Shown here piece by piece: positions 18,868-54,462 of a DNA stretch of 64,000 bases (the first letter of the stretch is position 1; the number at the start of each line of letters is the position of its first letter). This DNA is from Rhizophagus irregularis. Taxonomy: Eukaryota. The stretch lies in assembly GCF_026210795.1 (NCBI RefSeq), contig NC_089430.1, positions 1-64,000 of the forward strand. The letters are read 5' to 3'. A model generated the notes under the pieces. It searched no databases and was not told the origin of the DNA. It worked only from the letters and a program-made list of their open reading frames with translations. Both the position numbers and the translations under genes were made by a program.

Positions 18868-21800
18868 ATGGCTCAAAGTAACAATGAAGGTAAAAGCATA
18901 TAGCATCAAATACAAATTGAAATTATTCTAAAATTTTTCTAAACAAATTTGCAATATAATAAAACTAGTTTCAAGAATTGAGAAAGATAAAGGTAAAATT
19001 ATAAACATGTGATTTAAATTTTTAAACTAATCATTAAAAATTATTTTAATATGTTAGCTCGTAAGTAATAAGATATCTTGTTGGAATGATAATTAAATTA
19101 TATTTTATATAACCAAATAATTTATTTTATTATTAACGTTATTATAGTTAGTAAGTTAATAGTTATTTATTTTTTATTGTATTTTTTACATGACATTTCA
19201 AATAACTAAATTTTTCATTATTATAATTGTTTAATAATCACTTATATTATAGCAAGTAAGTATTTAATTTTATATTAATTTAAAAATATTTGTATAATTC
19301 AAACTAATAATATTATTTATTTAAATAATTAGATTGTAAGTTACTGTGTATATTTTAATTTTTATATATAATATATAATTGATTATAATTACTTTACTAC
19401 AAAATTATTATTAATTAATAATATTACAGGGTGTAAGTTATTTATTTAATTCTATTATATTTATATAATATTTATATGTATAATTTAAACTAACTAAATT
19501 ATTTAAAATTATTTATTTAATAATATAGGGAGTAAGTTATTTATTTAATTCTATTATATTTATATAATATTTACATATAATTTAAACTAACTAAATTCTT
19601 TATTAAAAAATTATTTATTTAATAATATAGTTCGTAAGTTATTTATATTTATATAATATTTACATATAATTTAAATTAACTAAATTCTTTATTTAAAAAA
19701 TTAATTTAATAATATAGGAAGTAAGTTATTTATTTAATTTTACCATATTTATATAATATTTATATATAATTTAAACTAACTAAATTCTTTATTTAAAAAA
19801 TTATTTATTTAATAATATAGTTTGTAAGTTTTTTATTTAATTCTATTATATTTAGTATATAATATTTACATATAATTTAAACTAACTAAATTCTTTATTT
19901 AAAAAATTATTCAAATATTTTAGATGGTAAATTTCTATTATTTATATATATAATATTTACATATAACTTAAACTAATTAATTCTTTATTTAAAAAATTAT
20001 TCAAATATTTTAGAAGGTAAATTTTTATTATATTTATATAATATTTACATATAATTTAACTAAATTTTTTATTTAAAAAATTATTCAAATATTTTAGAAG
20101 GTAAATTTCTATTATATTTATATAATAATATTTACATATAATTGAAATTAACTAAATTTTTTATTTTAAAAAATTATTTATTTAATAATATAGCTTGTAA
20201 GTTATTTATTTAATTTTACCATATTTATATAATATTTATATATAATTTAAACTAACTAAATTCTTTATTTAAAAATTATTTATTTAATAATATAGCTTGT
20301 AAGTTATTATTTAATTTTATTATATTTATAATATTTACATTATAATTTAAATTAATTAAATTCTTTATTTAAAAAATTATTTATTTAATAATATAGTTTG
20401 TAAGTTATTTATTTAATTTTATTATATTTATATAATATTTATATATAATTTAAACTAACTAAATTTTTTTATTTAAAAAATTATTTATTTAATAATATAG
20501 GGAGTATGTTATTTAATTTTATTATATTTATATAATATTTACATATAATTCAAACTAACTAAATTTTTTATTTAAAAAATTATTCAAATATTTTAGAAGG
20601 TAAATTTCTATTATATTTATATAATATTTACTATAATTACAATTAATTAAATTCTTTATTCAAAAAATTATTTAATAATATAGGAAGTAAGTTATTTATT
20701 TAATTTTATTATATTTATATAATATTTACATATAATTCAAACTAACTAAATTTTTTATTTAAAAAACTATTCAAATATTTTAGAAGGTAAATTTCTATTA
20801 TATTTATATAATATTTATATATAATTTAAATTAACTAAATTCTTTACTTAAAAAATTATTCAAATATTTTAGATGGTAAATTTCTATTATATTTATATAA
20901 TATTTATTATATATAATTTTTAAACTAATTAAATTCTTTATTTAAAAAATTATTTATTTAATAATATAGTTTGTAAGTTATTATTTAATTTTTTTTTATA
21001 TTTATATAATATTTATATATAATTTAACTAATAAAATTTTTTTATTTAAAAAATTATTTATTTAATAATATAGTTTGTAAGTTATTTATCTAATTTTTTA
21101 TTATATTTATATTATTTACATATAATTTAAACTAATTAAATTCCTTATTTAAAAAATTATTTATTTAATAATATAGTTTGTAAGTTATTATTTAATTTTA
21201 TTATATTTATATAATATTAATATATAATTCAAACTAACTAAATTTTTTATTTAAAAAATTATTTATTTAATAATATAGGGAGTAATAAATTATTTAATTT
21301 TATTATACTTATTATAATATTTATATATAATTTAAACTAACTAAATTCTTTATTTAAAAAATTATTAAATATTTTAGAAGGTAAATTTTTATTATATTTA
21401 AATAATATTTACATATAATTTAAACTAACTAAATTTTTTATTTTAAAAATTATTTATTTAATAATATAGGAAGTAAGTTATTTATATAATTCTATTATGT
21501 TTATATAATATTTACATATAATTTAAATTAATAATTTTTTATTTAAAAAATTATTTATTTAATAATATAGGAAGTAAGTTATTTATTTAATTTTATTATA
21601 TTTATATAGTAATATTTATATATAATTCAAACTAACTAAATTCTTTATTTAAAAAATTATTTATTTAATAATATAGTTTGTAAGTTATTTATCTAATTCT
21701 ATTATATTTATATAATATTTACATATAATTTAAACTAATTAAATTCTTTATTTAAAAAATTATTCAAATATTTTAGATGGTAAATTTTTATTATATTTAT

Positions 21801-24800
21801 ATAATATTTACATACAATTTAAACTAATTAAAATTCTTTTATTTAACAAATATTTTAGAAGGTAAATTTTTATTATATTTATATAATATTTATATATAAT
21901 TTAAACTAATTAAATTTTTTATTTAAAAAATTATTCAAATATTTTAGATGGTAAATTTATATTATATTTATTATAATATTTCCATATAATTTAAATTAAC
22001 TAAATTCTTTATTTAAAAAATTATTCAAATATTTTAGAAGGTAAATTTATATTATATTTATAATATTTTCATATAATTTAAACTAATTAAATTCTTTATT
22101 TAAAAAATTATTCAAATATTTCAGAAGGTAAATTTCTATTATATTTATATAATATTTATATATAATTTAAACTAATTAAATTTTTTATTTAAAAAATTAT
22201 TCAAATATTTTAGAAGGTAAATTTATATTATATTTATATAATAGTTATATATAATTTAAATTAATTAAATTCTTTATTTAAAAATTATTTATTTAATAAT
22301 ATAGGGAGTAAGTTATTTATTTAATTCTATTATATTTATATAATATTTATATATAATTTAAATTAACTAAATTTTTTATTTAAAAAAATTATTCAAATAT
22401 TTTAGAAGGTAAATTTATATTATATTTATATAATATTATATAATATTTAAATTAACTAAATTCTTTATTTAAAAAATTATTCAAATATTAGATGGTAAAT
22501 TTCTATTGTATTTATATAATATTTTCATATAATTTAAACTAACTAAATTCTTTATTTAAATAATTATTTATTTAATAATATAGCTCGTAAGTTTTTTATT
22601 TAATTCTATTATATTTATATAATATTTATATATAATTTAAACTAATTAAATTCTTTATTTAAAAAATTATTTATTTAATAATATAGAAAGTAAGTTTTAT
22701 TTAATTTTATTATATTTATATAATATTTATATATAATTAATTTAAACTAATTAAATTATTATTTAATAATATAGCTCGTAAGTTTTTTATTTAATTCTAT
22801 TATATTATATAATTTTATATATAATTTAAATTACTAAATTTTTTATTTAAAAAATTATTTATTTAATAATTATAGTTTGTAAGTTATTTATTTAAATTAT
22901 TATATTTATATATAATTTAAATTAACTAAATTTTTTATTTAAAAAATTATTTATTTGATAATATAGGGAGTAAGTTATTTATTTAATTCTATTATATTTA
23001 TATAATATTTTCATATAATTTAAACTAATTAAATTCTTTATTTAAAAAATTATTCAAATATTTTAGATGGTAAATTTCTATTATATTTATATAATATTTA
23101 TATACAGTATAATTTAAACTAATTAAATTCTTTATTAAAAAATTATTTATTTAATAATATAGGAAGTAAGTTATTTATTTAATTTTATAATATTTATATA
23201 TAATTTAAATTAACTAAATTTTTTATTTAAAAAATTATTTATTTAATAACATAGAAAGTAAGTTATTTATTTAATTTTATTATATTTATATAATGTTTAC
23301 ATATAATTTAAACTAATTAAATTCTTTATTAAAATATTTTAGCTTGTAAGTATATATTATATTTTTTTAATTTAATATAATTAATTTATTATAATTATAT
23401 TATACTTACTTATAATCTTTTTAAATTTTATTTTAGTTGGTAAGTTATAAATTATTATATATAATAAAATTTATATAAAAATTAAATATTATTGTATTAA
23501 AATTTTATAATTTTATTTAGAGTAAGTATAATTTATATTATTCAATATTAAATTTTTAATTGTAAATTATATTTTAAATTTAAATATAATTTTATTTTTT
23601 ATATTTAAAGATTTGGTAATAGTGGAAGTAAAATAATGGATCAATTTATTTTTAAAAATAAATTAAAATGGATTTCTTATGATAAATTTGAAAATATTAA
23701 TAAATATTCTGATAAAGAAGGATTTGGTACTATATATAAAGCTAAATATAAAAGGATTAAAGTAATTCTTAAAGATTTTAATCATCTTAATAATTCAGAT
23801 GAATGTTTAAATGAATTTTTAAATGAAGTATGATTAAGTATTTTTTTTTTTATGTTAATTATTATTTATTTATATTAATTTACTAAATATTATTTTTTTT
23901 ATAGTGGAAAATTATTGATTCAAATAAAATTATTAAGATATATGGATTTACAAAAAATCCAGATACTTTGAATTATATATTAATAATGGAATATATAGAT
24001 AAAGGTAATTTAAGAAAATGTTTGACAGAAATAACAAATACTTGGAAACAAAAATTATTTAATTTATATAAAATTATTGATGGTCTTAATGATATTCATA
24101 AAAAAAATCTTATTCATTATAACTTTCATGATGGCAATATTTTATGTAATGAATATAAAGAAAATATATATGGAATTTATATTAGTGATTATTTGGAATT
24201 ACACCAACTTACAAAATTTTTTTTTAAAAAAAATAATATTTATGGTGTTATACCATTTATGGCACCTGAAATTTTAAAAGGTCAACCTTATACTCAAGCT
24301 AGTAATATATATAGTTTTTCTATGATTATGTGGGAATTTACATCTGGAATTCCACCATTTAATGATAAAGCACATAATCTTCAACTTGCTTTAAATATTT
24401 GTAAAGGTGAACGTCCTGAAATTATTAAAAATACTCCACAATGTTATATAAATTTAATGGAAAAATGTTGGAATGAAGATCCATTAAAAAGACCATCTGC
24501 ATCAACAATTTTAAATATTATTAAAAATTGGATTTCTTTTCCTTTAGAAAAGAAAATTGAAGATATTAATGAAGAATTAAGAAGCAATATTATGGAATTT
24601 ATAAATGCATCTAATAATAATTACATTAATCATACTGTAAAATTTCATCCACAAGCATACTATACAAGTCGTTTACTTGATTTTACTAGTATAAATTTAA
24701 ATGAAATTTTATTTCTTAAATTAAAACAAGAGCTTTTTAAATTAGAAAAGATTATTGAAACTAATGATCAAAGTTCTTACCAAATGGAAAAAAATGATTT

Positions 24801-24882
24801 GCAAGCTCAATTAATTCAATTAAAAGCTAATATTCAAGAATCAAAATTTCAGCAAGATCAATTTAAAAATCTATTAATTTAA
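18868..24882 (+). CDS. Tyrosine-kinase-like (TKL) protein kinase or pseudokinase with microexon-encoded N-terminus; predicted 460 aa, 51 introns
   Basis: Exon model: 18868-18889, 18969-18992, 47 three-nt exons (19058-23439), a 1-nt exon at 23521, 23611-23827 and 23905-24882. All introns are GT-AG and the total of 1383 nt is open. Kinase motifs: KWISYDKF, EGFGTIYKA, VILK, IYGFTKNP, IHYNFHDGNIL, YGVIPFMAPE, NIYSFSMIMWE, CWNEDPLKRPS. The kinase domain is secure; the first two exons are less certain. Confidence 0.85.
18993..23610 (+). repeat. AT-rich tandem array of about 85-105-bp units; each unit is one intron plus one 3-nt microexon
   Basis: Each unit contains ...tag/cag NNN gtaagt/gtaaat... 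and most carry a CTAAC/CTAAT/TTAAC branch-point-like motif. The central units (19430-23345) are highly similar to each other, while the outer units are diverged. Confidence 0.92.
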
Positions 24883-28549: not shown

Positions 28550-31500
28550 TTAAAACATAAATGTATTAACAAAATATTCATTTTGTCGTTCGGCACGTTG
28601 AACTACTTGTACCAATTCTATAATTGATTCAATAGGCACAAAGTTATACGTGTTTATAATCTTCAACCAAGGACAATCATATTTGTATAATTGTCTTGAA
28701 TTACAAAAATCGTACCATTGTACAAGGGCAAGATCAAACGACAAATCTTTTTCGATAATTTTAACGTTAATCAACATAAGAACCTAAATATAAAATAAGT
28801 AAGTTATTGCTTGGATTATCATTCGTTAGTAGTTCAATATTAAATAAAATTCTGTACCTTGCCAAAACATGCACCACCTTCGGCTGTATTATAATCTTTA
28901 GACTCTTCCTCGCTCATGCTGATTGACACATCACTAAATGACGGTTCGTTATAATACAAGCTTTTTGCTCTAATGTAATCCCCGCTTGAAGAAATATTAG
29001 CATAACTATACCAACTAATATTAATAGTTTCATTATCGGTTAACCCTTCACATAAATCTAAAAACTCGTTTAACGATTCCAGAAAATATTCTAGAGCCGT
29101 TAGAGCTTCACGGGCCAAGCTATTGTTTGATCGGTAATTATTGAAAAACGCATCAAAATCTTGCAAATTAAATGTGCCTAACAAACTATTCATTAGAGTT
29201 TTTTGTTTGCGTCTATTAACATTTGTACGCTGAAGTAAGTATTTAATTATCCCTTTTCGGTAAACCTATATATAATATAACAATATTAATTTGTGATAAT
29301 GCATTGAATATCGTACTAGCTGTAATACCAACCGATTTAATCATTTGATCTGTTGGGTCACGCTTATTACTAGACCTATAGGGTATTTTTACGGCTTCTT
29401 TATGTAAAAATTCATACGTTTCCATCGTAAACCCGTTGATTGCTCCATATTCTCTAATTGTCTTAATGATATGATAGCACCAATTATGCAGCTTTGGTAA
29501 TCGAAGTTCTGATAGAGAATATTCTTTAAATAGTTTTATAAAGCTCTTTGCCCATTGTTTGATTAGATTCTTTAAACAAAATAAAATATAATCATGTTAA
29601 TTGCAATATTCATAAAAAACTAATCATCATATTATCTCGCTATCATACATCAAAAATCACCAGCTCTGATTCCTTAAAATACTCCCGTCGGCTGTATAAA
29701 TACATCTTATTCCAATAATAATACACGTTAACCAATGCTTCATCAGATCGTTTGGCTCGGGATGTACTTATCGATGATTTGTGGTGGTTTATGACTATTC
29801 CTTCTATGACGAAAACAAATACCTTCATCATATTCCGAAATTCATTGGCAGTAAACCGCTTAATATTTTCCAGGCCATTCTTGAATATCTTAAGGCCAGG
29901 AAATCGTGGGATTTTAGCCAAACGATTATCAAGTTCGTCAACCGCTATTTGACCACACAATTCTTTTAACAACACCCTTGTGTAGGTCACTTGATAATTA
30001 AACAATCCCAAGTCGAGATGATGCATTCGGTCAGGTATTGTTGACAAATAAATATTTAACTGACTATCGTTTATTTTTGAGTAAATATATTAGAAAATAA
30101 TTGGCAAAATAAACACACTTTCTTTAAAAATCACGTGATACGTACGGATAATTCCAAAAGATGTTTTTCATATCGTGTAGAGAATATTGTTGTGCAGAAT
30201 TTTGTTCAACAAGACATCTCATATTTTCTGGTGTTCTTAAGATAATTTGATCGTTTGTTAACTCCACATTGTTCAGCTTCTCACGCTCCACCAAACATTT
30301 ATGACAAGGGTGGTGACAATTAACAGAGTTAAATGTTAAAGTTACCGCAGCATTTTCTGGTAAATCTCCTAACATTACGGAAATAAACGGAAAACACCAC
30401 TTTATACCATTATCTGTTTGAAGATCAAATCCACCATTATAGTCAAGTAACGATCGTGTCAATATATTTAAAGCATATTGATAAAGGACTCGCTTGGCTA
30501 ACCGAAAACTCTTTGACCTCTTTTGTGAAATATCTTTTGCCTTTAGGATCGGCAGATAACCCAAAAGTATTTTGGCATCAGGCCTATTTCTGCGCCAACT
30601 AACTATATTACCAAGTGTCAAATAAATGGGATGTTCGCTGGTCTTTCCTAAGTGATCACGTGTCGTAGCATCCGAATATAAAATTACTGACAATACATTT
30701 GCACCATTAGGAAGTGATTTTTGGACTCTTTCCCACCATTGTCCATTATATTGTTCGTTATATATTCTTTCTCCGTTATGATTTAATAGTGTAAATTTAA
30801 AAGTACAATGGGCAAATATATCCTTATTGCTCAACAATTCCTTTATAACGTCAAAAATCGGACGATAATGAAGATAATACGTTTCTTGTTTATATGTCAT
30901 GATAGGCGCTTTTTTAAAAGAAATATGTGGTACAACAATTTGATCCAACAATTGATGACCTTTTTTTACCGACGTAGGTAAAATTACATTATCGCGGCAA
31001 ATCTTTTTTGAAAATTTAAGTATATCGTTACCACATGCATCAGACAAATTCCATTTAGTAAGCAACTCCATAAAATTTCCAAACTCTTCGCTTGGAAATT
31101 CTGGTATATTTGTTACTCTAATATCAAGAGATTCGAAGGTTAGGATTGGTTCAACGTCAATTAGCGAATATTCGATTTCAATGTCTCTTGATTCGTCAAT
31201 CACTTCCTATATATGGATGTTAATAGACAATAAATACTTGATAAATATGTCGATCGCTTTCTATATATAGACATATATAGACGCACACAAAAGTATAAAT
31301 TATTTTAATTTCATTTAACGTTGATTTCTCACCTCCTCTTTCTCTTCCTCTTCCTCTTCATAGCTCACCTCTTCTAGTTGTTCATCATTATCGCTCCCTT
31401 CCTCTTCTTCTTCCCCTTCGTCTTCCCCTTCCCCTTCGTAGTTCACATCCTCTAGTACTTCATCATTATCTTCCCTTTCTTCTTCGTAGTTCACATCCTC

Positions 31501-32932: not shown

Positions 32933-35918
32933 ATGGATAACGACGACAACAAAAATAATAATAATAAAACCAGCGGCAAACGCTCTTTAGATTTTAATAA
33001 TTTAAAACGCCCAAAACCTACTACTAGATCTAGTACTAGGTCTACTAGATCTACTAGATCGTCAACGAGTATGAATATAGAAGTAATTATTTTAACTTTA
33101 AATTATTATATATATTTGGTTGTAAATTATTATGATTGTATAAATATACTTATATAATTAATATCTTTTAGATCAACGAACAAAATAATTTGAAAGGTTT
33201 TATTTTAGTTTTTTTTTGAACTTGTGTGAACGAATATCTAAAAATACATTATAATTAACAGATACCGAAGCCAATCATCAAACAATTTCAGACGCTTCAC
33301 AAATAGAGACTCCAAAAAAGACGAAAATTGCAAGGTTAGATTTGTTTCGTGATAGAGATATTGATGAGATTATTATCGGTACCAATAAAACTACCAAAGG
33401 ATCTTCTCAAGTAATATCAGTTATCAATTTTGTTATTGTTTATATTATTCATTATTAGTTTATTAAATACATTTTATTGTTTTCATCAGGCAATAAATGA
33501 ATCATCAACAATATCCTCTTATATCCCTTCGGTGGTAATTTCTCCTCCTTCCTTCTCTCCTCCTTCCTCTATTAAAACAACGATATCTGATAAAGCAGCA
33601 TCTGGTGGTAAAGCAGCATCTGATAAAGCAGCATCTGGTGGTAAAGCAGCGTCTGATAAAGCAGCATCTGGTGGTAAAGCAGCGTCTGGTAAAGCAGCGT
33701 CTGGTAAAGCAGCATCTGGTGGTAAAGCAGCGTCTGGTAAAGCAGCATCTGGTGGTAAAGCAGCATCCGGTTCTAGTAAATCATCATCATCCAGCGTTAA
33801 GGCAGTGATTAGTAAAGAATCGCCATCAAATAATAATGTGACAACATCATCATCTAAAGTAACGGATCAAGGTTAGATACGATATATACTGTTTGTTCAT
33901 TGTTGTTTTGTTAATAAATTATCAAATTGGTTCTTATTATTCTTATTAACGATAATTTATAGCAGTTAGTTCTGGTGAATTTGCCAAATTAATACAAATT
34001 AATCAAAAAACAGCATCAAAACTCAACACGATTATTAATAATCAAGAAAGGTTTGAAGCTATGTTAAACGAACAAAAAGACCAGATTTCAAATATAATGT
34101 CGGTATTAGATTCTCATCGCAACGTTGAAACTGAAGTCGAGGTTAAAAAAAGGGTAAAACGAAAAAGAAAGACAAAAACTCAGATGAATTTTATCACGTT
34201 GTCACCGGCACCTGCCACGTACCGATAGACGAAATCTTAACATTTATAAATATATATATGTCCGTGCTTGGTTTAGATTTTATCATTTTAATTTATTCAA
34301 AATTTCAAACTTCGATAATTTCCCTTAGTGTTATCATAACATTATTAATTATCATTATATTTTCCTAAGTTCCCAATATTATTTTCAATTTCAAGTCAAA
34401 ACTCCCTTTTTTCACTTAAGTCCAAAATCTCGATCTTAAATAACTTTTCTTATCTTGAATATCTTTTCTTATCTCTTGATCATCTATCTAAAACTTAACA
34501 TTCCCCAACAATTTACTTGTTATTCCATTATACATTCTCCAACTTAACATTTTCATTATAAATCTGTATCCATGAATTATTTCCCCAACAATTGATTTGT
34601 CTGATTCCCTTTTAATTTATCATTTATAATTTTCCCATTCCATCATAATTTATATGATCCATAATTTTCTCATTCCATCAATTAAACTATCAAAGTCCTC
34701 CCAACGAAATAATAATCTATTTATGCTAGACTACTAATAACTAATCTAATAATATAAATAATTATAAATAACTGAATTATAAATAAATATTATTATAAAT
34801 AACTAACTATTGTACAACTATAATAATGTATTTCTAATTATTTCAGTTAAATATTCTTTCATCGGTTAAATGTTTATCCATATTCCATTCGGTATTTCAT
34901 TCAGCCTTCGGATAATTATTCCTCTGTTCACGTGATTATTTCGATATCTAGGGTTACAACGTAAATATATGGTTTAAAGTTATGTATTTCTTTATATTAT
35001 TTACTAAATATAACAATTTGTATGTATTAAGGATGCGATTAAAGATCTTTCTTATGAATTATTTCATGAGCATCGACGAGTAACCGACCGACAAATGAAA
35101 AATCGCCTTAAAGAAAAATTAGAAAATGATGAAACATCCGCCAAAATACTCATGAAGTTGTCCGGAAAAGGAGTTTCGTTCGATTATTTGTGGGATGATA
35201 GAATGCATTCACAAGTAAGTAGTATTTGTATTATATATTAGTCATTAATTGCCAAATTTATAACAACTTGTTTATTTTATTAAATATAGTTACTTGCTGC
35301 AAATCGCGTTAAAAAAGGTTACTACATTAGAAAATTGAAAGAAAGTTTGTGGAGTACTTTCGGTATTAATAGAATAACGCCATTCAAAGATAATTTCAGC
35401 AAACAACAGATGCGAACATGGAAAGCAAGTAAAAACGTTCAACAGGTCCATGAAGATTTATACAAACCGAGCGACTCAGATGATCCATCGTCTGATACTT
35501 ATATTTCGTTAATAATTAAATCGGTTTTTGCATCTGATAAAGAGCGTACAAATGAAAACGCCATTTGGGTTCAGTCGGTATTAGAAGTTATATTTGACGA
35601 GGAACATCTTTCGTCAAAAAGCGATGCAGACATTGTCGATTCATGGACCGGAAATATAACAGATACAGACGTGGTAAGTACTCAACTGAATTGTATGTAA
35701 TGTTTTAAATTAAATTACTAGTAATATTGTATTTCTTTATTTAGGATTCTGAAGAATGTGAATGTGAGTCTTCGCCCAAAACACCTATAACACCTATTGA
35801 CGATGATGATGAAATCATTGGAGTTGATAATCGTGTTGATGATGTTTATGATGAGCATACGACGGACGATAATCAAGCAGCTGATTTAGAAGTTGCTGAT
35901 TTAGAAGAAGAGCAATAA
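32933..35918 (+). CDS. Second (accessory) gene of the Plavaka element; multi-exon, low complexity, interrupted by a solo LTR
   Basis: ATG at 32933, short exons with GT-AG introns, (KAASGG/KAASD)n repeat at 33590-33770, acidic C-terminus ending TAA at 35916-35918. Confidence 0.6.
34200..34958 (-). mobile_element. Solo LTR (Gypsy-like)
   Basis: TGT...ACA termini with a perfect 4-bp ACGT duplication. Reverse-complement ends resemble the LTR at 56958-57658. Confidence 0.75.
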
Positions 35919-36856: not shown

Positions 36857-38959
36857 TATACCACCTCGAAGGTATCATTTGGATTTGAAATCCTGCAACT
36901 TGTGAAGTCATCATTATTCGAAAGTAGTGGCGACATATAATGCCGCAGGATATATTAGACATGCACGAACAAAGGTAAGAAATGGAATCAATTATCACCA
37001 CGAAATATATATGCTTTTTATTTTCAGGTCGCATATCGGTAATCTTCCATACTTCTTGAATGTTTTCTTCACCAACTTCAGCAATTATTGACTTCAACAG
37101 AATTTGCTTAGCATCATATGAATCTTCAACACATCCTTCCATTACACCAGCTTCTGGATCCTATATAGCAATAGTATTAGATTTCGTTAACATTTCAATA
37201 TATAAAAAAGACACTAAATACCTCAACGATATTTGGTTCCACTTGACTTGGTACAAAGTAAAGGCATTGTGCCATTTCCATACGCTCAGCAGACAATATT
37301 TGTGGGGTTAGGTATTCAGTCATTATTTTATCGACTTTAGGAAAAAGGTCTTGACTAACCGTTATAATCCCCACGTAAGTTGATAAAATGCGGTACTCAA
37401 AAAACCGATTCCATTGAGCTTCATGTTCAAACCGTGCATCAAGAGCATCTGCGAGACCGCATAATGTACTGTTTGCTGACAACTCACGCTTGATTATATT
37501 ATTGTGACTTTTGACGCGGAAAGTAGTTTGAATTCCTGCGGTGAAAATTTTTGACGTAAATGCACGAGCTCACGCTTGACGACTAGGATAAAGAGCTCTC
37601 ATCAGGTAATCCTTTATACTAGGATATTTTTCTATAAGCTTAGACCACCTTTCATAAAAAAGTTCTTCATACAAACTGTTACGACATGAAAAAAAGCTCC
37701 GAACGAAACTTTCATATTGATCGCTGAGCTTTGATTTAACATTCTTTGGTAGATTTTCGCTGATATGGAAAATGCAATGAATCGGGTGAGTTGTCTCGTA
37801 TATTTGTGTGATCGCTGCGTTCATGGTGGGATCGGCATCTGTGATGAACACTAAAGGTTCTGTCATTGTTGCTTTTTTTGTGCACTCCAAAATCCATTTA
37901 TAAGATTCTACCGATTTGTCAGATACGAGGGCTTGAGCTACAAGTCGTGATTTAGTATTGTTATTAACGACAAGGAAAAGTGATAATGGCATTTGATAAC
38001 GGTTGGTCTTAGCAGTGTTATCGTTTAAAATAACATCATGATACTCTAACCAAAGAGTAATTTGGGACATAGACATCCAAAAAAGCTGAGTAAGTCTTTT
38101 ATCTTGATCAAACTGAAAATCAATGAACCATCTGGGATCGTTTGACTTATGCTCAATTAGTATTTTTAGTAAGCGAAATGCATCATGGATTACATCTGGC
38201 CTAACCTTATATTTTTGTATTACATTAGAGAGATCACAGTCGAGAATAGATATAGTCAGAAATTTTGCCTTCAACAACTTTTGTTGAGTGGTAATCGGTA
38301 AATTTCTATGTTCGGTGAGAAATTGGACTTCTTTAAGGACATCATCAGGAATGCAACGGTATTTTGATGAATAATTTTCAGTATCAGCAGGAAATAACGC
38401 ATAGTTGTGCAAATTATTGAAAGTGGTAAGAGATACGCCTTGAGAGTTTTGAGGGCAATTGAAATTTGCATTCCATGGACATTGCTGGCATTTTGATTTA
38501 TGATCTTGATGACTATTAATATCAACTTGTTTTTGTGGATGATAATGGCCGCCGAATTCACATCTAAAGCTATGATGTTTAATACTCCCATCTTCACGCT
38601 GACCTAATCGTTTCTTTATAATCGTAAATTCATGTCTTTTGCTATAGGCTTTTATGATTCCGTCCACATCTCCCCACGACCTAAAGGTATCGCCTATGGA
38701 AAGATTTGTTATAGTTAAATATTCAAGGTAACACAGGTCGAACAGGTGTCATTGTCGCAAAATTTGCCTGGAATTTTTCTGGCAAATTGAGAATTATCCC
38801 GGTAAATTGGGGTAAATTGTGTTACAATTTTGGGATAATGGAGGACTTACAATTTGGCAAATTTTGTCAAAATGGCAGAATTCCTACAGAATTCCTAATT
38901 CAAATGTTGAGAAATTTTTCAGATAAATTATCATTAAATTGTGGGAAATTCTAGGCAAA

Positions 38960-43595: not shown

Positions 43596-44507
43596 AGTAG
43601 GGCAAACTTGGGGGTTCTGGGACAGCGGCTATCACATAGGTCTAACCATAATTTAGTGTACCCCCAGACCACCTAGCCTTGTTTTCTGATATGTTAACAC
43701 TATACCTGTTTTTCTATCCCCAGATCACCTAACCTTGATTCCCGATATGTTATTACTTGATAGCTAAAAAAGAACCCCCAAGCGTTGTAGATAAGATTAA
43801 CATCATTTATTCCTAGGCATTATTACCACGCATGGATCCATTCCAGGGTATCATAATTTTATGCTATATCAGATTGCCTTTATAAGTGCCAAAGGTATGA
43901 AGGACACGAAGTGTCTGTAATACCGATGGCACGATTCAGCAATCCATTGTGGCATACTATTTTTATGATACTCTAAAATGGATTCATTTGATGATTTAAG
44001 CCATTCATGCTCTAACCAAAAATTTTTAACAGGAAGGTAACTAGACATATTGTAAAGCTTTTCCTGCTATACGAAAAAATCTGGGACAGTGAAGTCTAAC
44101 CAAAAATCTAACCCAGGTCTAACCAAAAATGTATAGCAGGAAGGCAACTAGATATGTTTTAAAGTTTTTCCTCCTATACGAAAAAATCTGGGACAGCGAA
44201 GTCTAACCAAAAATCCAACCCAAGTCTAACCAAAAAATGTATAGCAGGAAGGCAACTAGATATATTGTAAAGCTTTCCCTGCAATACGAAAAAATCTGGG
44301 ACAACAGGTCTAACCAAAAGTCTAACCAAAAATCCGTCTGAGGTCTAACCAAAAAATATACAGCAGGAAGACAACTAGACATATTGTAAAGCTTCCCCTA
44401 CAATACGAAAAAATCTGGGACAATGAAGTCTAACCAAAATTTAACTCTAATCATAAATTGCTCTGATTCTTTGACGAAGCCTATTTTCATACCGATTTTG
44501 ATAGTAA
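43596..44507 (+). repeat. Left terminal inverted repeat of the Polinton-like element
   Basis: Near-identical reverse complement of 54463-55373. Inner half has about 120-bp tandem units rich in TCTAACCAAAA. Confidence 0.95.
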
Positions 44508-44683
44508 CTCCCAATATGAGATTGACATCGACCACTAGATGAACCTGTAGGTTTACCACATACAGCACAAGGAAAGCGTGATTTTGTCTTCCAATGAATG
44601 CGACAACCTTCTGGCCTCACACAAGGACGACCACAAGGCTTTCCTGTGTTATGTAAATATTCACAAGTATATTCTCCAATCAT
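44447..44683 (-). CDS. Small Cys/His-rich protein (putative zinc-binding), 78 aa
   Basis: MIGEYTCEYLHNTGKPCGRPCVRPEGCRIHW...CAVCGKPTGSSSGRCQSH. The 3' end lies inside the TIR. Confidence 0.6.
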   Translation of the reverse strand: MIGEYTCEYLHNTGKPCGRPCVRPEGCRIHWKTKSRFPCAVCGKPTGSSSGRCQSHIGSYYQNRYENRLRQRIRAIYD

Positions 44684-44735
44684 TTTTATTAAGTATAAAT
44701 AAGTTAAATTAAAAAAAACTTTACATGATATAAAA

Positions 44736-45113
44736 ATGATGTCTACCCAAGCTATACCAGCTAAGCCAACATACCGTGAAATTGAATCAGTTCTAATTGC
44801 TGTAATTAAAGCAGGCATCCTTTACAAGAAACCAAAGGATGGTAAATTCATGTTATGTTACAAACAAAGGATAATCAAATTGCGTCAAGCAGAAGAACCA
44901 GAAAATTTTGTTCTTGAAACAGCACAATCTATTCTACCTAATGAGACAAAGTATCAGCAAATCTTGGAAAATTATAAGACCTGGTATAGCAGAGAGCCAA
45001 AACTTTTGTCTGCTATTAATAAGCTATACAGGTTATACTACGAATTGGCAAAAGACTACTTCCTTACAGACTCCCAAGCAGATGATGAGGTAGAAGACTA
45101 TCTTAATTCATAA
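44736..45113 (+). CDS. Hypothetical protein of the Polinton-like element, 125 aa
   Basis: Clean ATG-to-stop ORF with protein-like composition, tightly packed between its neighbours. Confidence 0.55.
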   Translation: MMSTQAIPAKPTYREIESVLIAVIKAGILYKKPKDGKFMLCYKQRIIKLRQAEEPENFVLETAQSILPNETKYQQILENYKTWYSREPKLLSAINKLYRLYYELAKDYFLTDSQADDEVEDYLNS

Positions 45114-45120
45114 GTACCCA

Positions 45121-46200
45121 TTATGGTGGAAGTTCTGTATCATCTGGTATAACCAAAAGTTCTTCCCTCACAAAGGATCTCTCTGATTCTTTACCATCAT
45201 CATCAATAAGCCAGTACAAAATTGGTTGATTTTTCTGTGTTAAAGACATATGGATATGATAAATCTTAGGTGACCAATTCATATCTCCTGCTCGACGTCT
45301 TCCACCTTCCAGATCATTTGGTTCAAGTAAGTACCTTACACTTATATCAGGTGGTAGTTTCTCTTCTTCATACCCAACAGGTCCATCACGAGGATAAGAA
45401 GATCTGGAAGACACTCGTGATTTTTTTATAGCTACAGCAGGAGATATACCAAGTTGTTGGGTCACTGAGTTATTTATACTTTCTACAGCAATAGGTAAGT
45501 TTTTTACCCAGACTCAAGATCTCGTTTTACCTAAAGTTAGTAAGTCAGATGCATTTTGAGAGAGAAATAGTTTCTCAACCAAGGTACGGTTATATCGCTC
45601 CACAATGCCAACAGTACGCTTAGACTTGGCCTTCTGAATCTTTACACCATGGGAAGTCATCAACTTTTCACACTCACCTTTAAACTCTGAACCCCTATCT
45701 GTAATTAATAATTTTGGCCAAGTGAGCGGACATGTTGTATCATCATATACCTTTTCAAAAGCCCAAGCAATAGTATGAGAAGTTAGGATTCTCTGTCGAT
45801 CTTTAACACTGGTTGAACCTATAGGGACACTTTCTTTATACCTCGATGCTATATCAACTATATTGAGACAGAAAAGATAAGTCACATGTCCAACCTTGTC
45901 ATATGGCATATACAAAATGTCAGCTTGATGAACTTCATTGGGAAACTTGTATAGAACTAAAACTTACACGAGAGATAAATCGGGGACGAGGTTTGTGAAC
46001 TTGATGTACTGCCTGTCTTTCAAGCCAATCCTGCACTTCATCTAAGGTGAAATCATATCCAGCATTTTGTGATGTCTCATACAATTTTTTGGCAGTTCTC
46101 TGATATCCAGATGGTTGATAAAATATTCTGCATAAAGTCGAAGTCACCTCTACATTTCGTGCTTCATCAGAATCTATTTTAATAATAGGTATCAATGGGA
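45121..46200 (-). pseudogene. Polinton-type retroviral-like (rve, DDE) integrase, disrupted
   Basis: IFYQPSGY...VQDWLERQAVHQVHKP, QADILYM, IVDIASRY, LITDRGSEF, VERYNRTL and NWSPKIY...SFVREELL. Frameshift near 45940 and an in-frame TGA at 45514-45516. Confidence 0.9.
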
Positions 46201-48279
46201 GTTGAACAGGCATATCTTGATCTGCTAAATAGCAACTTTGCTTTACGTAAAGAGCTGATATTAAAGGAAACAAATAATATTTCCAATAAGGAGAAAATCC
46301 GTAAACTCACAAAGGAGATAGAGGCATGTGAACGATATATCTTCTATCTTGAAAAAAATCTTGTTTCACGTGAGGATGAGATCGATCAGTTAAAGGCAGA
46401 GTGTCAGTCCACTTTAGTTGAACTTGGAAAGTATCGAGATCACTTAGAGTTAAAGGAAGAGGCACTTGTTGCCCAGGATGAACGTATCATTCAGCTTGAA
46501 GACACAGTAGATAAACTCAAAAAACGCATTCAAGAATTATTTTTATGTAAAGAAAAGATAGAAATGGATGAAGATAATGAATTATTCAATCCTATTCTAA
46601 GAATACTAGACCGCCGACGGGCAGTTGCAGATTGTGTGTCTGAAATTCGACTATTTTTTGATCGGAATAGGATTCCAATTCCACAAGACATAGATGATGT
46701 CTTTAATGCTACCACTCAAAGTCTTGATGAAATTATTCGTCAAGCTGCTCTAATGCAAGAAATTGGTGTAGACCAACTAAATCAGATAGAAGGATTGCAG
46801 ACATTACTTGGAGAATCTTTAGATCGTACAAATGCTCTTAATCAAGACTTAATAAGAGTACGTGATGATTTTACATATGAGAGAAATGCTCGTAGACACT
46901 GGGAAACTGTTGCACAACAGAATCAAGCACATATTGCAGGAATACAAATAGCCAATCTAGGTATATGTTTTCTGAATAGACGCAAAGATGCACAACTGGC
47001 AAACCAACAGAATCAGCTGGTAAATCATCAGAATCAGATAGCAAACCAACAGAATCAGATAGCTGAGCATCGAAGGAATGCACACAGGCTGATGTTACGC
47101 TATAATGCTGATACAGAACGTTGGAGAAGAAGGCATGCAGGTTGTATACGTCAGGCACAAAACTGGCAAAGACAATATAGGATTTCACAGACCCAGGTAC
47201 AAGCACAGGCCCAAAATATTTTAAATTTACAACAACAAATATTAGCGTTACAAAACAATCCTCCAAACATGGCTACAATACAAGATGTCATGCATACTAT
47301 ATCACCAGGTCTTGCACAGTTACCATTTTATGATGGACAAGAGCCGCCAGACTCTTATTATCAAAAGCTTAGAGCTGTCAATGAGATGGCTCGTCCACTA
47401 GCTTTTGCTGGTTTTAATGCTGCTATGAGGTGCAATGTCATGAAAAATAAAATGTCTGGTAGATTTATTCCTGTTCCAGTAAATAATCCATATAATGGCA
47501 ATGCTGCTATTAATACAGAACCAGAGTTTCTAAACTGGCTGCAAGGAAAATATAGAGATGTGATGGTTGGAACAAATCAAGGTGCTATAATAGCACTCAT
47601 GAATGAATCATTTTCTCCTATAGATACACCAGATACATATGCAAAAAGAATTCGATCATTAGCACAAGGACAAGTATATGCCGAAATTTTACCTTATCTA
47701 TATAATCATTTGCCTGATGCTTTAGAAATGAGAGTTAGAATTGCTGCTCCTGCTGATCTTGATGCTTTCTTTAATGAGTTGCGTAATAAATGGTATGAAA
47801 GTGGAGGGCGAAAAAATCCAACCACTATAGTAGAACAACCACAGAATAGAACTGCATTAGAAAAGCTTGCAGATATAGCAGTACGTCTTGGCTATACTGG
47901 TGACATAACAAATCCTGTAGCAATACATACTTTCATTGAGAGTGATCTTACCAGAAAGTTAGGTGGATAAACACAACATCTAAGAAAAGATCACTTCGGA
48001 ACTGGTCAGATTAAAAAGGTGACAAAGACAACCAAATCTTCTCCTAAACGTCATTGCTCAAACTGTGGTAGAACAGGTCATTCCAAAAACAAGTGTCCAC
48101 GGAGTAGACGTGCTAAGAAAGTTAACAATACTCACATAGTTGACTATGAAGAATCTGAAAGTGATGAGGAAACTGATGAAGAAACTGAGGAAGAGTTAAC
48201 TGAAGAAGAAGAGGAGGAGGATGAACCTCAGAATTGCTTTAGTGTAAAAAAAAAACTCGTCAACGTGGAGTTTCGGTAA
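46195..48279 (+). CDS. Gag-like protein: long coiled coil, helical domain, CCHC zinc knuckle, acidic tract (one in-frame TAA at 47968)
   Basis: ORFs 46195-47970 and 48019-48279 share a frame. LPFYDGQEPPDSYYQKL resembles the start of retrotransposon Gag capsid regions. CSNCGRTGHSKNKC is CX2CX4HX4C. Confidence 0.7.
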
Positions 48280-49193
48280 AAACCAAAGGGAAAAAATCCC
48301 GTACTTCCAAATCTAAAAGAGAACCTATTCTCAAGAAAACTGATGAAGTCTTTCATGCAGCACTGAAGTCTATAATTGCTTCACTAGCAGCACAATGTCC
48401 TAAAGAAATCCTCCTACAGATTAATGCTTATACCAATCAAGCATATGAGAATCTGAAAGACCCGCTTTTAAACCATTTTGTTAGTGACTATCCAGTTAGT
48501 GAAAGAAAGAAACTCTGGGATGTTCTTTCAGCAAATATGCAAGACATTTTATCTCCTCTAGCTCATGCTGTAAATACAGCAACTCCACTATTACCAACTC
48601 CTCCTGCAGATGTACCATCTGAAGTAGAACAGAAAGAAGACAAAACACTGAACCATGCAATACGTGCCTATCAGCAGAAAAACCTATACTGGCCAAGACC
48701 CTTAGAAATCAACTTTTTCCAGTTAGATGATCCCAATGATGTAGCGACCATTTCCTGTAAAATCAAAAATGTATGCATACCCTATGCTATGATCGATACA
48801 GGGTCTGACTCTTCAGTAATCTCTGAGAATGTAGCTAAGCATCTAGGTCTCAAAATAGATCGAAAGAATATACATGCACTTAATGGTGTAGCTGGATCAA
48901 CCAAAACTCTTGGCACTATCAATGAAATTCCCATAACTATTGGTGAAGGTACAAATACAGTCACTATATCAGACGAATTCTCTGTTATACCTACCGAGAA
49001 GGATCGAAATGGTAAGGACAAATCATTGCTAATACTTGGTATACAGTGGCAGTATCATGCAGGTTGGGAACCTGTAGTAAAGGGTGAGTTCAAAGCAAAT
49101 GTAAATGGACAGGTTGTCTCAATTCCTCTCTCTGTACATAAGGCACAACGTAATGTTTTTGCAGTAGATAGCCAGCCTATAAAAAAAAACTAG
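48245..49193 (+). CDS. Retropepsin-like aspartic protease in the -1 frame relative to Gag
   Basis: AMIDTGSDSSVISENVAKHLGL and LILGIQW. The frame is open from the A10 run at 48246-48255 to TAG 49191-49193. Confidence 0.85.
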
Positions 49194-49441
49194 CTGATCG
49201 TACCTGTCAGCATTGTGGGAAGGAATTCCCATATCCTTCTAATCTTAGACAACATTTTTTACGAAAAAATCCATGTGCAGTAAAAAAGTCCCATGCAAAG
49301 CCCATGCAAAGTCCATGTGCAGTTAAAATTTCCCATGCAAAGTCCATGCAAAGTCTATGCACAGTAAAAAAATCCCATGCGCAGTCCACACAAAATTTGA
49401 GTGAAGCAACAGTACCCATTCGTCTATTTCTTGATGAATAA
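49190..49441 (+). CDS. Zinc-finger-containing extension in the -1 frame relative to the protease (no start codon ahead of the finger)
   Basis: LADRTCQHCGKEFPYPSNLRQHFLRKNPC, followed by SHAKPMQSPCAVK-type repeats, ending TAA 49439-49441. Preceded by the heptamer A AAA AAC. Confidence 0.6.
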   Translation, partial: LADRTCQHCGKEFPYPSNLRQHFLRKNPCAVKKSHAKPMQSPCAVKISHAKSMQSLCTVKKSHAQSTQNLSEATVPIRLFLDE

Positions 49442-49447
49442 TGGGAA

Positions 49448-49885
49448 CTACGACATGGAAGCAAGTTTTTTTTCTATTTCTCGTACTTGCTTCTTCATGG
49501 TATCAATTTCATGTCGTATCTGATGATTTGTCTTGATCAATTTCTCATGTTCTTTAGTAAGGTTCTGCATGAATCGGCCAAAAGTAACCTTATTATATTC
49601 AAGCAAGTGCTTCTGAAGTATGGAAACTTCTTCACTAATTATGTCTTGTATCATTCTGTTTCTTGGCATATATGTCTGTTTAACAGTTAGTTTCTGACGT
49701 GCTAATTTTTTCTGGTATCTTTCTACTTCATGTTTCAAAAATAACTCTACCATGGAATTTACTCCACTGGCATCAGACACAGATAGTGGATTGCGCTTCC
49801 TTGTTGTGAGACGAATCCATGCCTCATGTATTACAGAAGCTGGTAATATAACTAGTAGCTCAGTGTATACCTGGTTGAAAGACAT
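49448..49885 (-). CDS. Hypothetical coiled-coil protein, 145 aa
   Basis: Intact ORF within the element, co-oriented with pPolB. Confidence 0.55.
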   Translation of the reverse strand: MSFNQVYTELLVILPASVIHEAWIRLTTRKRNPLSVSDASGVNSMVELFLKHEVERYQKKLARQKLTVKQTYMPRNRMIQDIISEEVSILQKHLLEYNKVTFGRFMQNLTKEHEKLIKTNHQIRHEIDTMKKQVREIEKKLASMS

Positions 49886-49977
49886 TAGTTCTTATTACGA
49901 AAAAAAAATTTGGAATTCCAAAGAATTCTGAAGAATTCCATAGAATATCTTATCATATGACACCTCCCAGAAATCTG

Positions 49978-50247
49978 TTAGATGTCATGTGCTAATGATT
50001 GTCTTTCTCTTAGTATTGAATAATAAAATGCCTCTACTAAGTCATAAAAGGCATTTGGAATGTTTGGTACAGGGCATTTCATAAATGCATTAATACTAGT
50101 CTTAGAACTTATGACCATTTTAGCTAATGCCTTTATACTTTTTATTGCATCCTCTACATCTTTAAAGAGACCTCTCTGAATTGTGATATGTATAAGGTCA
50201 TCGATATATTCTTTACTATGTATATCATAGATTGGATCGTCTTCCAT
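49978..50247 (-). CDS. Hypothetical protein, 89 aa
   Basis: MEDDPIYDIHSKEY... ORF immediately downstream of pPolB. Confidence 0.5.
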   Translation of the reverse strand: MEDDPIYDIHSKEYIDDLIHITIQRGLFKDVEDAIKSIKALAKMVISSKTSINAFMKCPVPNIPNAFYDLVEAFYYSILRERQSLAHDI

Positions 50248-50320
50248 TTTAACTACTGAAAAAAAAATATAATTTATTATTAATATATGCCTAAGTATCA
50301 CTAAACTATTCTATATCATT

Positions 50321-53300
50321 CTAATATTTCTCTGGTAATCTGGTCCCTATAGCTATTTTTTCTGCTGCCTCATGACTTGTGCCACGCTCAAGAAGTTTCT
50401 TATATACTTGAATACGCCAGTGTCCGAATGGTAAGGAGGATATACCATCTGACCAAATCCAGCGTTTTGTATCGATTGGGGATAATGCCTTCTTCTCTGA
50501 CTCGATTAGTGATATTACATGATTTTTTGTACGCATTCCCACATTCTTGGCATAGAAGATATTATTTTCAAACAGACAGTCCCGATATACTTGAGTCATA
50601 GGATCGAAGATTTCATCTTTTTCTACTGTATCATCTAATAAAGTTCCACCTAAAGATGGGAAATATGTGTCCTTAGCCATATCACTCATACCCTTCTTGC
50701 TTACTCCTTTATGTTTGGACTTTGTAGACTTGTCTGCCAAGACATAGTGGTAGGATTTTGCACGGATGTGGTAGGATTCAGTAATTACATTTCCAGGAGT
50801 CTCATCCTTGAAAAGCCCGATAGTCTTGGTATCATTAAGGTCAAAGAGATCTGGACGCTCTGCCATATCCTTGTAAATATCTTCTGTCTCGACATGGTAG
50901 ATAAAGGAGTCAGTATCCATATATCCAAGTCGTACTTTGTTTCCATACTTCTCTTTGACAAAACCATACCAGAAGCGGTACATTAAGAGTTTACTGAGAC
51001 CAAGGACAGATGCACCGATAATGATAGGTTTATTGAGAATAACACTAGCCTTTCCCATATGTGCTCCTACAAGTGTGTTGCCAAGTTGACGAGCATACTT
51101 GAAGGAGGGCTTGCGAACTTTCTTAAGGAATTTCTTCTCATCATTTTCATTGATCATTCTCATAAGCTTGACATCCTGATACTTACGTACATTCTCCATA
51201 GTCTTGCCATAGACTGAGTTATTCATGAGTTTAAAGAAGTCTTTCTCAAATGAATTCTTGGATTGTTGACGTAAATTTGTATTTTTTGCAATATAAGGAG
51301 CTAACCAGTTATCTTGATCAAATGATAGGACTTGTGTAATCTCATCTACAACCATGCCTAACTTAATGTAATACTGGAGCTCTTGGTAATGTATGACATA
51401 ATCTTCATGTTTACCAAGATGTGGAACTAACTTTTCTGTTTCAGGAAATCGCCCTCCATCTAAGTTATCAACAAGTTTGGTTATATATGGGCTTAACCTA
51501 TCCTTTTTTACAGCTATACTATCAACTGCAGGAGGTAAATCTTATAGATAATCATGAGTCCTAAGGGGGTAGTGCGCTTTGATATTTAGGAAGTAACCAC
51601 AGGCAGCATCTGGTTTTGTATTAAGAATTACATTAAGTATCTGCTTCTGCTTATCTGGATTCTGTTTGAAATATTCTGGAGATGCTTCCCATCTGTAATT
51701 ACCAATAGGTAAGTACTGGCTCATAGCCCATCCATACAGATTGTTTGCATCTACATAGGAAATCCAGGTAGTAGGTTTAGAGGGATTAAAAGAGTCACCC
51801 ATCTTAGGGTTATTGGCTTTTAGAAAACGGTGTCCAGCCATAGCTATTCCTCCACGTTTAGCCTTTTCAGTAAAATCATGCATGGTCATGTCAGTGAATA
51901 GCTCTATTTTGACTCCAGTCATCTTAAGCATGCCATCCCATGAAAGTGCTGGTGCAGAGACATAATGACTTGGGTCAAGTCCATAATGATGCATCGCTGT
52001 CTGTTAAAACTTTGTCCAGACATCTGCTAGGAGAAGAACATCAGTCTTAAGGTAAAGGTCATGATACTCGCCCAAGTTCTTGCAGCCAAATTCCTTCCAA
52101 ACTTTTTGTGCATGTTTGTAATTATCCTGAGTGATCTTTCCTCCAAGAGTACTATGAAAGTCATGAATAGATGGGAGTTCTGTCTCCTTGAAACGATCAT
52201 GTGAATCAATATATTTATAAGGATAAACCCCTTTACGTGTGATTAAGTCAATATGTTCAGACGAGAAGTTTTTGAAGTGTCGCTTTGTGAGGGGTTTATC
52301 TGTCCCTAAATTCTTTGCAAGGTTTGCAAGACTGGAGGCCATGAACTGCATGCTATCAATGTACTTGAATTGCCCTACCTTCATGGATTTGTAACGTTCG
52401 AATGTCTCTGCAATAACTTTGATTTGATGTGCTCCAATTGATCGTCCAACAGATTCACAAACTAAATGGGAGTCATAGCCACAGAAGTTATGAAATACTA
52501 CAGGAATTGGAGTCTTCCATGCTTCGATTTGAAGCTTAAGATTGCATGCATTATGAGCAGCTCCACGAAACTTACCTGTGATGTGGCAGTGATCCCAAAC
52601 TTTTTTGTCTTGCACGCCCTGATTGAAATTCCCATTACATATCCAACAACTAACTGCTTCAGTGAATTCCTTTTTAGCTTCCTCTGTTATAATACGTTCT
52701 ACTTTTACTTCTAAAACATCATTAATCCTTCTTAATTCTTTATCAAGTCTGCAGACAAACTCTTCTGTTGCATTTGGTCCTCGGTATAAGAATGGCCCCC
52801 ATGTCTCATCAGTTTCAATCCAGTGGACCATATAGCAGAAGCTATTAGCCTTTTGCTCCATAATCTTATGCATATTTCCACCATAGTTTTCATTACACTT
52901 TCTGTTATCAGCCTCAAAGTCTGCAATAATTACACATGGAGCATACATTGTTCGGTTAAAATTCTTAAACTCCTCAAAATCATTCTTACCTTTAACTGGT
53001 AACTCAACTCTTTGTGGTGACTCACCTAATCCAAAACACCATTCCTGATGATTAGTTAGAGATTTAGACGATGGAAAGCTTTGGAAGCACCGATTGCAAA
53101 GATGCTTCTTTCCCTTGTGGGATGTATCTTTGTATATTAAAGCATCAGGATTCTTAATCCAAAGGAAGTGATTCTTCTGACCATACTTTCCTTCATCTGA
53201 TTTTGTAATATCTGTAAGGGCCATGAGGTGAATGATATGTTGACGGTTGTAATTCTTACTTGCAATAACAGGTTTTGGAATACCAGTTTTCTCCTCCCAT

Positions 53301-54392: not shown

Positions 54393-54462
54393 ACTGGTTG
54401 TGTACTAATAACCTAAAAATTTTTTTCTTCAATTAATAAATTCTAAAATGTTTTCCATCTTA

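What the first reader, a model, noticed from the sequence alone, without database searches (positions are those of the whole stretch)
19333..23439. Microexon order avoids junction-created stop codons
The introns are phase 1, so each codon is the last base of one exon plus the first two of the next. Twelve exons end in T and 17 of 47 begin with AA or GA, yet no T-ending exon is followed by one, which would give TAA or TGA. A naive independent-order estimate is (30/47)^12, about 0.5%; block duplications reduce independence, so this overstates significance. T+GG junctions instead give five Trp codons, with recurring W-[KN]-G-[KR] and RIYE[ED] motifs. This is internal evidence that the array is translated and under selection.
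Basis: partly seen in the sequence, partly recalled or inferred. Interest (0 to 1): 0.8.

Follow-up and report, generated by a model that had tools for sequence, protein, structure and literature searches.

The report
Forty-seven one-codon exons precede a kinase
A kinase-like gene of a root-symbiotic fungus is preceded by 47 three-base exons whose order never creates a stop codon, here or in 41 similar arrays; they are likely spliced into a variable tryptophan-rich protein end that is probably reshuffled in the DNA and that current gene annotations miss.

Summary
Observation confirmed; the array starts at 19058. There are 47 AG|NNN|GT exons: 12 end in T, 17 begin AA/GA, and none joins into a stop (shuffle p=0.0017; p=0.14 after the harshest collapsing). 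The gene is a Rhizophagus irregularis tyrosine-kinase-like gene. An ATG exon, a 24-nt exon, the 47 microexons, a 1-nt exon (23521) and two kinase exons give one open 460-aa frame. Replication: 41 AT-rich metagenome arrays show 0 phase-1 stops against 10.4 expected (p<=0.00005; 0.004-0.005 after collapsing), but chance levels in phase 2 and between non-adjacent exons; 8 of them lie directly before this kinase family. One spliced contig, identical to this gene, starts exactly at the kinase acceptor, and its loose end fits the last ten microexons plus the 1-nt exon. Acceptor and donor types are locked around each exon but mix freely across introns, which suggests cassette shuffling in the DNA. 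The catalytic Asp is Asn (likely pseudokinase). Closest known: alternatively spliced codon-sized exons of Tuber nank NLRs. The scan noted similar arrays in HET genes of other genomes. New variant; function untested.

The parts
18868..18889 (+). First coding exon (ATG, 22 nt, ends in phase 1)
   Evidence: Sequence. Open model. Similar N-termini in annotated paralogs P0040, P0041, P0075, P0106.
18969..18992 (+). 24-nt symmetric exon (phase 1-1)
   Evidence: TAG acceptor and GTAA donor. Paralogs carry 8-aa repeats after the first exon (P0079, P0150, P0157). Other acceptors inside it are possible; not tested with RNA.
19058..23439 (+). Array of 47 three-nucleotide exons, starting at 19058, 19148, 19253, 19333, 19430, 19529, 19631, 19718, 19821, 19924, 20014, 20098, 20194, 20296, 20397, 20501, 20597, 20684, 20784, 20873, 20970, 21074, 21177, 21279, 21378, 21470, 21571, 21677, 21777, 21859, 21948, 22038, 22125, 22214, 22305, 22406, 22492, 22584, 22687, 22775, 22876, 22967, 23067, 23163, 23255, 23343, 23437; 14 exon types; introns 77-103 nt
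   Evidence: Last ten supported by the RNA loose end.
19433..23342 (+). Homogenised introns 5-45: a shared middle core with two cassette types (acceptor A/donor a around GGA, GAA, AAA, TTT, TTC, CTT, CTC; acceptor B/donor b around AAG, ATG)
   Evidence: Alignment and typing; mean identity 0.84, against 0.72 for the five edge introns; tandem repeat of period about 89-103.
23521..23521 (+). One-nucleotide exon that carries the phase-1 array into the phase-2 kinase acceptor
   Evidence: Without it the frame closes. Loose ends at 23611 in runs X2 and X21 end as this model predicts.
23521..23525 (+). Alternative 5-nt form of the same exon (weaker donor at 23526) that would read the array in phase 0
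   Evidence: It gives the LSKFG joint seen in annotated paralogs P0076 and P0109 (LSKSG in P0107). Not seen in the RNA loose-end consensus.
23611..23827 (+). First kinase exon (N-lobe)
   Evidence: Matches P0001 and P0125. X2 contigs identical to the window begin at 23611 and end at 23827.
23905..24882 (+). Last exon: rest of the kinase domain (catalytic Asp replaced by Asn) and C-terminal tail, with stop
   Evidence: 100% to P0001; Pfam PF07714 and PF00069 above cut-off; alignment to CTR1; Asn in 7 of 120 relatives, Asp in 108, 5 not matched.

Best explanation
The 47 three-base exons lie in phase with a start exon and a kinase, and are likely spliced one after another into a 47-residue variable N-terminal segment whose order is probably reshuffled by recombination between the near-identical introns. 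SHOWN: exon-intron anatomy, an open phase-1 frame, phase-specific and adjacency-specific stop avoidance, Trp excess, cassette linkage. SUPPORTED by limited RNA: in-order inclusion of the last ten microexons and the 1-nt exon. INFERRED: because every codon is split between two neighbours, moving one acceptor-exon-donor cassette by unequal crossing-over or gene conversion in the shared intron core changes two residues without a frameshift; selection removes orders that make T|AA, T|AG or T|GA and favours T|GG. SPECULATIVE (about 0.35): the segment is a variable binding or bait surface on a probably catalytically dead kinase, used in non-self recognition.
For: Open 460-aa model. 41 arrays: phase-1 stops 0 vs 10.4, phase-2 55 vs 49.9; lag-2 8 vs 8.9; 0 vs 4.3 with T|GG fused (p=0.004). 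Trp 38 vs 15.6 expected. 8 of the 41 precede this kinase family; the kinase-side exon is entered in phase 1 in 5 of the 6 checked by script, and by eye at the next acceptor in the sixth. An A-L-x-x-W motif opens the array in 10 of 13 relatives with a readable upstream exon (8; L044 and L058 re-read at the later donor), and the window spells the same motif across five microexons in phase 1. X2 contig: 74 of 74 letters identical from the exact acceptor, 183 loose letters (188 coding nt predicted upstream); the two-contig consensus matches the prediction at 23 of 30 letters, unspliced DNA at 10 of 30 (by eye). Acceptor and donor types agree around 40 of 41 typed exons but are nearly independent across introns (17/8/7/9, Fisher p=0.19). 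Introns between the same exon pair are hardly more alike (0.897) than others (0.883). Exon letters are far more diverse (0.62-0.71) than the 16 acceptor-side letters (0-0.16) in type-A units.
Against: The in-gene test falls to p=0.14 when runs are collapsed and T|GG fused. The 8 kinase-linked arrays alone are uninformative (0 vs 1.2, p=0.26). 33 of the 41 arrays come from three assemblies and are related. One dropped AT-rich locus, L095, has a T|AA joint. RNA for this exact gene is one contig read through a two-contig consensus of 30 letters; in raw-read runs 0 of 47 and 0 of 28 laid reads were 99% or more alike. The first 37 microexons have no direct RNA support. No alleles of this locus were compared, so shuffling is inferred from one array. 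No database protein that I inspected clearly shows the phase-1 peptide. The catalytic Asn could reflect decay.
Confidence: 0.68

Rival explanations
1. Same exons, but diversity comes mainly from alternative splicing (skipping subsets), as reported for Tuber nank genes; the genomic order is only one of many products.
For: All exons are symmetric, so skipping keeps the frame, and only 4 of 45 single skips create a stop. Precedent: passages in PMC4986451 and PMC13449251. Contigs drop rare variants.
Against: Stop avoidance is confined to direct neighbours: lag 2 gives 4 vs 4.25 here and 8 vs 8.9 in relatives. One contig runs 183 letters upstream of the acceptor, and its last 30 letters fit full inclusion. 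Both mechanisms could operate together.
Confidence: 0.15
2. The array is a selfish or neutral tandem expansion of an intron-exon cassette. It is spliced and tolerated as a linker, or the gene is decaying; stop-making orders are purged but the peptide has no recognition role.
For: Tandem repeat. Catalytic Asn. About 19 kb from a telomere among transposon remnants. No near-identical raw reads in two runs.
Against: Trp joints are in excess (38 vs 15.6), exon letters are more diverse than their flanks, and the A-L-x-x-W motif is kept across different exon layouts.
Confidence: 0.12
3. The array is read in phase 0 (each exon one codon, a Gly/Leu/Ile/Met-rich segment) through the 5-nt donor, or it is not spliced at all and the protein starts at the internal Met, as annotated.
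For: Phase 0 is open. 6 of 120 annotated homologs have Gly/Ile/Leu/Met-rich N-termini of this kind (P0004, P0060, P0076, P0106, P0107, P0109; by eye). P0001 and P0125 start at the internal Met.
Against: Phase 0 cannot explain neighbour-dependent stop avoidance or the T|GG excess. The upstream exon ends in phase 1. Loose ends in X2 and X21 end as the 1-nt model predicts. Relatives enter the kinase-side exon directly in phase 1.
Confidence: 0.05

Closest known systems
Codon-sized mini-exons of the Tuber melanosporum nank (NACHT-ankyrin) NLR genes (Iotti et al. 2012, PMID 22289772; not held; seen only through citing passages)
   Same: Tens of 3-nt exons in an expanded gene family of a mycorrhizal fungus.
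   Different: The host gene here is a kinase-fold protein and the array is N-terminal. The reported mechanism there is alternative splicing; here selection acts on the genomic neighbour order and the anatomy points to DNA-level cassette shuffling. I could not see the phase or intron homogeneity of the Tuber arrays.
Exon shuffling in brown algal ROCO-LRR and NB-ARC-TPR candidate immune receptors (passage in PMC13449251)
   Same: One module per exon, reshuffled by splicing and repeat exchange.
   Different: The modules there are whole LRR/TPR repeats; here the module is three bases and each codon is shared between two modules.
Expanded tyrosine-kinase-like family of Rhizophagus irregularis (passage in PMC4219462; homologs)
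   Same: Same Pfam domains; 933 homologs at E<=1e-30.
   Different: The array is absent from, or read in another frame in, the annotated models inspected; this branch has Asn at the catalytic Asp.
Isolated 1-3 nt exons in fungi (Coprinopsis passages in PMC12230235; Fusarium CYP621A, PMC12940212, listing and abstract start only)
   Same: Shows that fungi splice 1-nt and 3-nt exons.
   Different: Those are mostly single exons (27 three-nt exons in 26 genes), not a 47-unit homogenised array.
Schistosoma micro-exon genes (recalled, not checked)
   Same: Runs of short symmetric exons that vary a protein.
   Different: Longer exons, secreted proteins, variation by exon skipping.

Membership tests
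Tuber nank codon-sized mini-exon system | Tens of consecutive 3-nt exons | tested here: met
   47 exons
Tuber nank codon-sized mini-exon system | Host gene is a NACHT-ankyrin NLR | tested here: not met
   Only kinase families match P0001
Tuber nank codon-sized mini-exon system | Extensive alternative splicing of the mini-exons | tested here: inconclusive
   One contig fits full inclusion of the last ten; no raw reads of this gene; skip products are not protected from stops
Tuber nank codon-sized mini-exon system | Expanded paralog family carrying the arrays | tested here: met
   8 kinase-linked arrays among 120 loci; paralog reads spliced through a similar end
Glomeromycotan tyrosine-kinase-like kinases | PF07714/PF00069 above curated cut-off | tested here: met
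   115 and 106 bits
Catalytically active protein kinase | Catalytic-loop Asp | tested here: not met
   Asn at this position; activity itself not testable
Non-coding minisatellite | No reading-frame-specific constraint on unit order | tested here: not met
   Phase-1 and neighbour-specific stop avoidance
Non-self recognition receptor | Allelic diversity under balancing selection, or a recognition phenotype | not testable with these tools
   No genome or alleles held

The most novel reading that the evidence does not exclude
Arbuscular mycorrhizal fungi run a split-codon shuffling device: cassettes of acceptor, three bases and donor recombine in a shared intron core, so that each residue of a Trp/Asp/Asn-rich N-terminal segment is written by a pair of neighbours. 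This generates hypervariable recognition or bait peptides on a hidden class of kinases and pseudokinases, a candidate basis for self/non-self recognition in these fungi.
Probability: 0.33. Interest if true: 0.88.

Novelty: new variant of a known kind. Interest (0 to 1): 0.72.

Why it matters
If right, many kinase genes of the model arbuscular mycorrhizal fungus have a hidden, highly variable N-terminus that annotation drops or mistranslates. This offers a concrete, testable candidate for what the unexplained kinase expansion does. It is also an extreme splicing substrate (48 consecutive exons of 3 nt or less) and an unusual case in which selection on protein sequence is read from the order of exons.

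Tried and rejected
No whole genome was held, so paralogs and alleles could not be enumerated. No listed holder was on record as RNA; the two raw-read runs laid gave only paralog-like reads, which is no evidence of silence. Three homolog searches and one profile-library search gave no protein with a clear phase-1 segment among those I read (N-termini of 120, 9, 18 of 63); P0040 is a possible partial case. The structure of the spliced N-terminus was not predicted. 33 GC-richer arrays showed no pooled avoidance in phase 1 (24 vs 26.6) or phase 2 (16 vs 12.1); their phases are unknown and may be mixed, so this is only a weak control. Block duplication as the sole cause was rejected: only two 4-exon blocks repeat, and the most similar introns sit between different exons. 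Seven paper searches listed nothing on microexon arrays in Glomeromycotan kinases; I saw listings, subscription papers and supplements were not covered. Look-ups by place, sequence and a second word set in earlier findings were blank.

Full report
1. Observation. Shuffling gives 4.3 stops on average, P(0)=0.0017. Collapsing runs gives 0.008, fusing T|GG pairs 0.017, both 0.14. The single-gene statistic is therefore suggestive, not decisive.

2. The gene. The downstream ORF is 100% identical to a Rhizophagus irregularis DAOM 197198 kinase-like protein (P0001; PF07714 and PF00069). Both annotated versions start at an internal Met and omit the array. A model of ATG exon (18868-18889), 24-nt exon, 47 microexons, a 1-nt exon at 23521 and two kinase exons is open for 460 codons; without the 1-nt exon it closes. 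The same small exon has a second, weaker donor 4 nt further on, which would read the array in phase 0. 6 of 120 annotated homologs have Gly/Ile/Leu/Met-rich N-termini that look like this reading (by eye), so phase had to be tested.

3. RNA. On 23600-23832, run X2 (contigs; RNA is a guess on record) has one contig identical to the window from 23660 to exactly 23827, the donor, which shows it is spliced. Another is identical from exactly 23611 to 23684 and has 183 further letters upstream; the model predicts 188 coding nt there. The tool prints only a 30-letter consensus of two contigs. By eye it matches the predicted spliced end at 23 of 30 letters and unspliced DNA at 10 of 30 (binomial about 2e-7 at an assumed match rate of 0.3; about 1e-5 to 1e-4 for the first 24 letters alone). 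All 7 mismatches are the alphabetically earlier letter, which is what a tie between an exact copy and a paralog would give if ties are broken that way (my inference). In raw polyA run X21, 4 paralog-like reads have a loose end at the same acceptor that parses into nine triplets of the array vocabulary plus the single base. Neither raw-read run had a read 99% or more alike (0 of 47, 0 of 28), so expression of this exact gene rests on X2.

4. Replication. 51 have GC below 0.27. I dropped 4 as near-duplicates, 1 as a plain repeat and 5 for short spacing, leaving 41 arrays with 318 exons and 272 joints. One dropped locus, L095, has a T|AA joint; it has short, unlike introns. In the 41: phase-1 stops 0 against 10.4 (none of 20,000 shuffles reached 0); phase-2 stops 55 against 49.9; after fusing T|GG and collapsing runs 0 against 4.3 (p=0.005); at lag 2, 8 against 8.9. 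Trp joints number 38 against 15.6. Eight arrays lie directly before the same kinase family, entered in phase 1 where checked, but these eight alone are too poor in AA/GA exons to test (p=0.26). The others are assigned by likeness of introns and first exons. 33 of the 41 come from three assemblies, so they are related and the p-values overstate independence. An A-L-x-x-W motif opens the array in 10 of 13 relatives with a readable upstream exon, where A-L lies in the large exon; the window spells the same motif across microexons in phase 1.

5. How the order changes. Two cassette types exist. Acceptor and donor type agree around 40 of 41 typed exons, but across an intron they are nearly independent (17, 8, 7, 9; p=0.19). 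The unit that moves is therefore acceptor-exon-donor, with breakpoints in the shared intron middle (inference). Introns between the same exon pair are hardly more alike than others (0.897 against 0.883), and the most alike pair (0.99) sits between different exons. In type-A units the exon letters have diversity 0.62-0.71, against 0-0.16 for the 16 letters before them. This fits unequal crossing-over or conversion that homogenises introns while exons stay varied. No alleles were available to watch it happen.

6. What it does. The catalytic-loop Asp is Asn here and in 7 of 120 relatives, against Asp in 108; the four kinase-linked metagenome loci that reach this motif keep Asp. A variable Trp/Asp/Asn/Ile-rich segment on an expanded signalling family suggests a binding or bait surface, by analogy with fungal NLR sensors. 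This step is speculation.

7. Comparison. Codon-sized exons are known from Tuber nank NLRs, where alternative splicing is the reported mechanism (passages only; the original was not held). My scan also retrieved such a NACHT-ankyrin array (L033). Earlier notes of this scan describe short arrays in HET and kinase-HET genes (unchecked). The present case works like these systems in building variable peptides from single codons, but it is not a member of the nank family. What is new is the host family, the length, the split-codon phase with selection on neighbour order, and the signs of DNA-level shuffling. Seven searches listed no paper on this in Glomeromycotan kinases.

8. Verdict. Real feature; spliced and translated in phase 1 about 0.85; DNA shuffling as the main source of variation about 0.65-0.7; recognition role about 0.35. 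New variant of a known kind; interest 0.72.

Noticed in passing
window 23521-23525: Two donors 4 nt apart turn this exon from 1 nt to 5 nt and switch the whole array between two open frames. Several annotated paralogs appear to use the phase-0 form, probably a gene-prediction error, but a regulated switch is not excluded.
   Followed up: partly
window 1-949: TAACCC telomere repeat: the gene lies about 19 kb from a chromosome end.
   Followed up: no
window 19058-19255: The three first microexons encode residues that relatives keep inside one larger exon (A-L-x before the conserved Trp), which suggests intron gain or loss at single-codon spacing.
   Followed up: partly
proteins P0014, P0079, P0109, P0117, P0150, P0157: Variable numbers of 8-residue acidic repeats after the first exon, probably tandem 24-nt exons: a second tier of modular variation in the same family.
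   Followed up: no
L033:3926-9329: PNP_UDP-NACHT-ankyrin NLR followed directly by about 30 three-base exons, a nank-like gene.
   Followed up: partly
L009, L035, L041, L050, L052, L065, L066, L105: Long, varied 3-nt exon arrays in GC-richer contigs; host genes not identified (no Pfam hit for the nearby ORFs tested at L035, L052, L065). L041, L050, L052 and L065 have no phase-0 or phase-2 stops.
   Followed up: partly
41 AT-rich arrays: No exon begins with TA (0 of 272 following exons) although TT is common (55); unexplained.
   Followed up: no
window 44400-54400: Cluster with split DNA polymerase B and endonuclease VII-like ORFs and an integrase-like ORF (by eye), resembling a Polinton-like element.
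   Followed up: partly
window 30124-31206 and 37570-38748 (- strand): Plavaka and MULE transposase ORFs.
   Followed up: partly
window 33415-33876: ORF with a hydrophobic start and Ser/Ala/Gly/Lys tandem repeats, no Pfam match; possibly a secreted or surface protein.
   Followed up: partly
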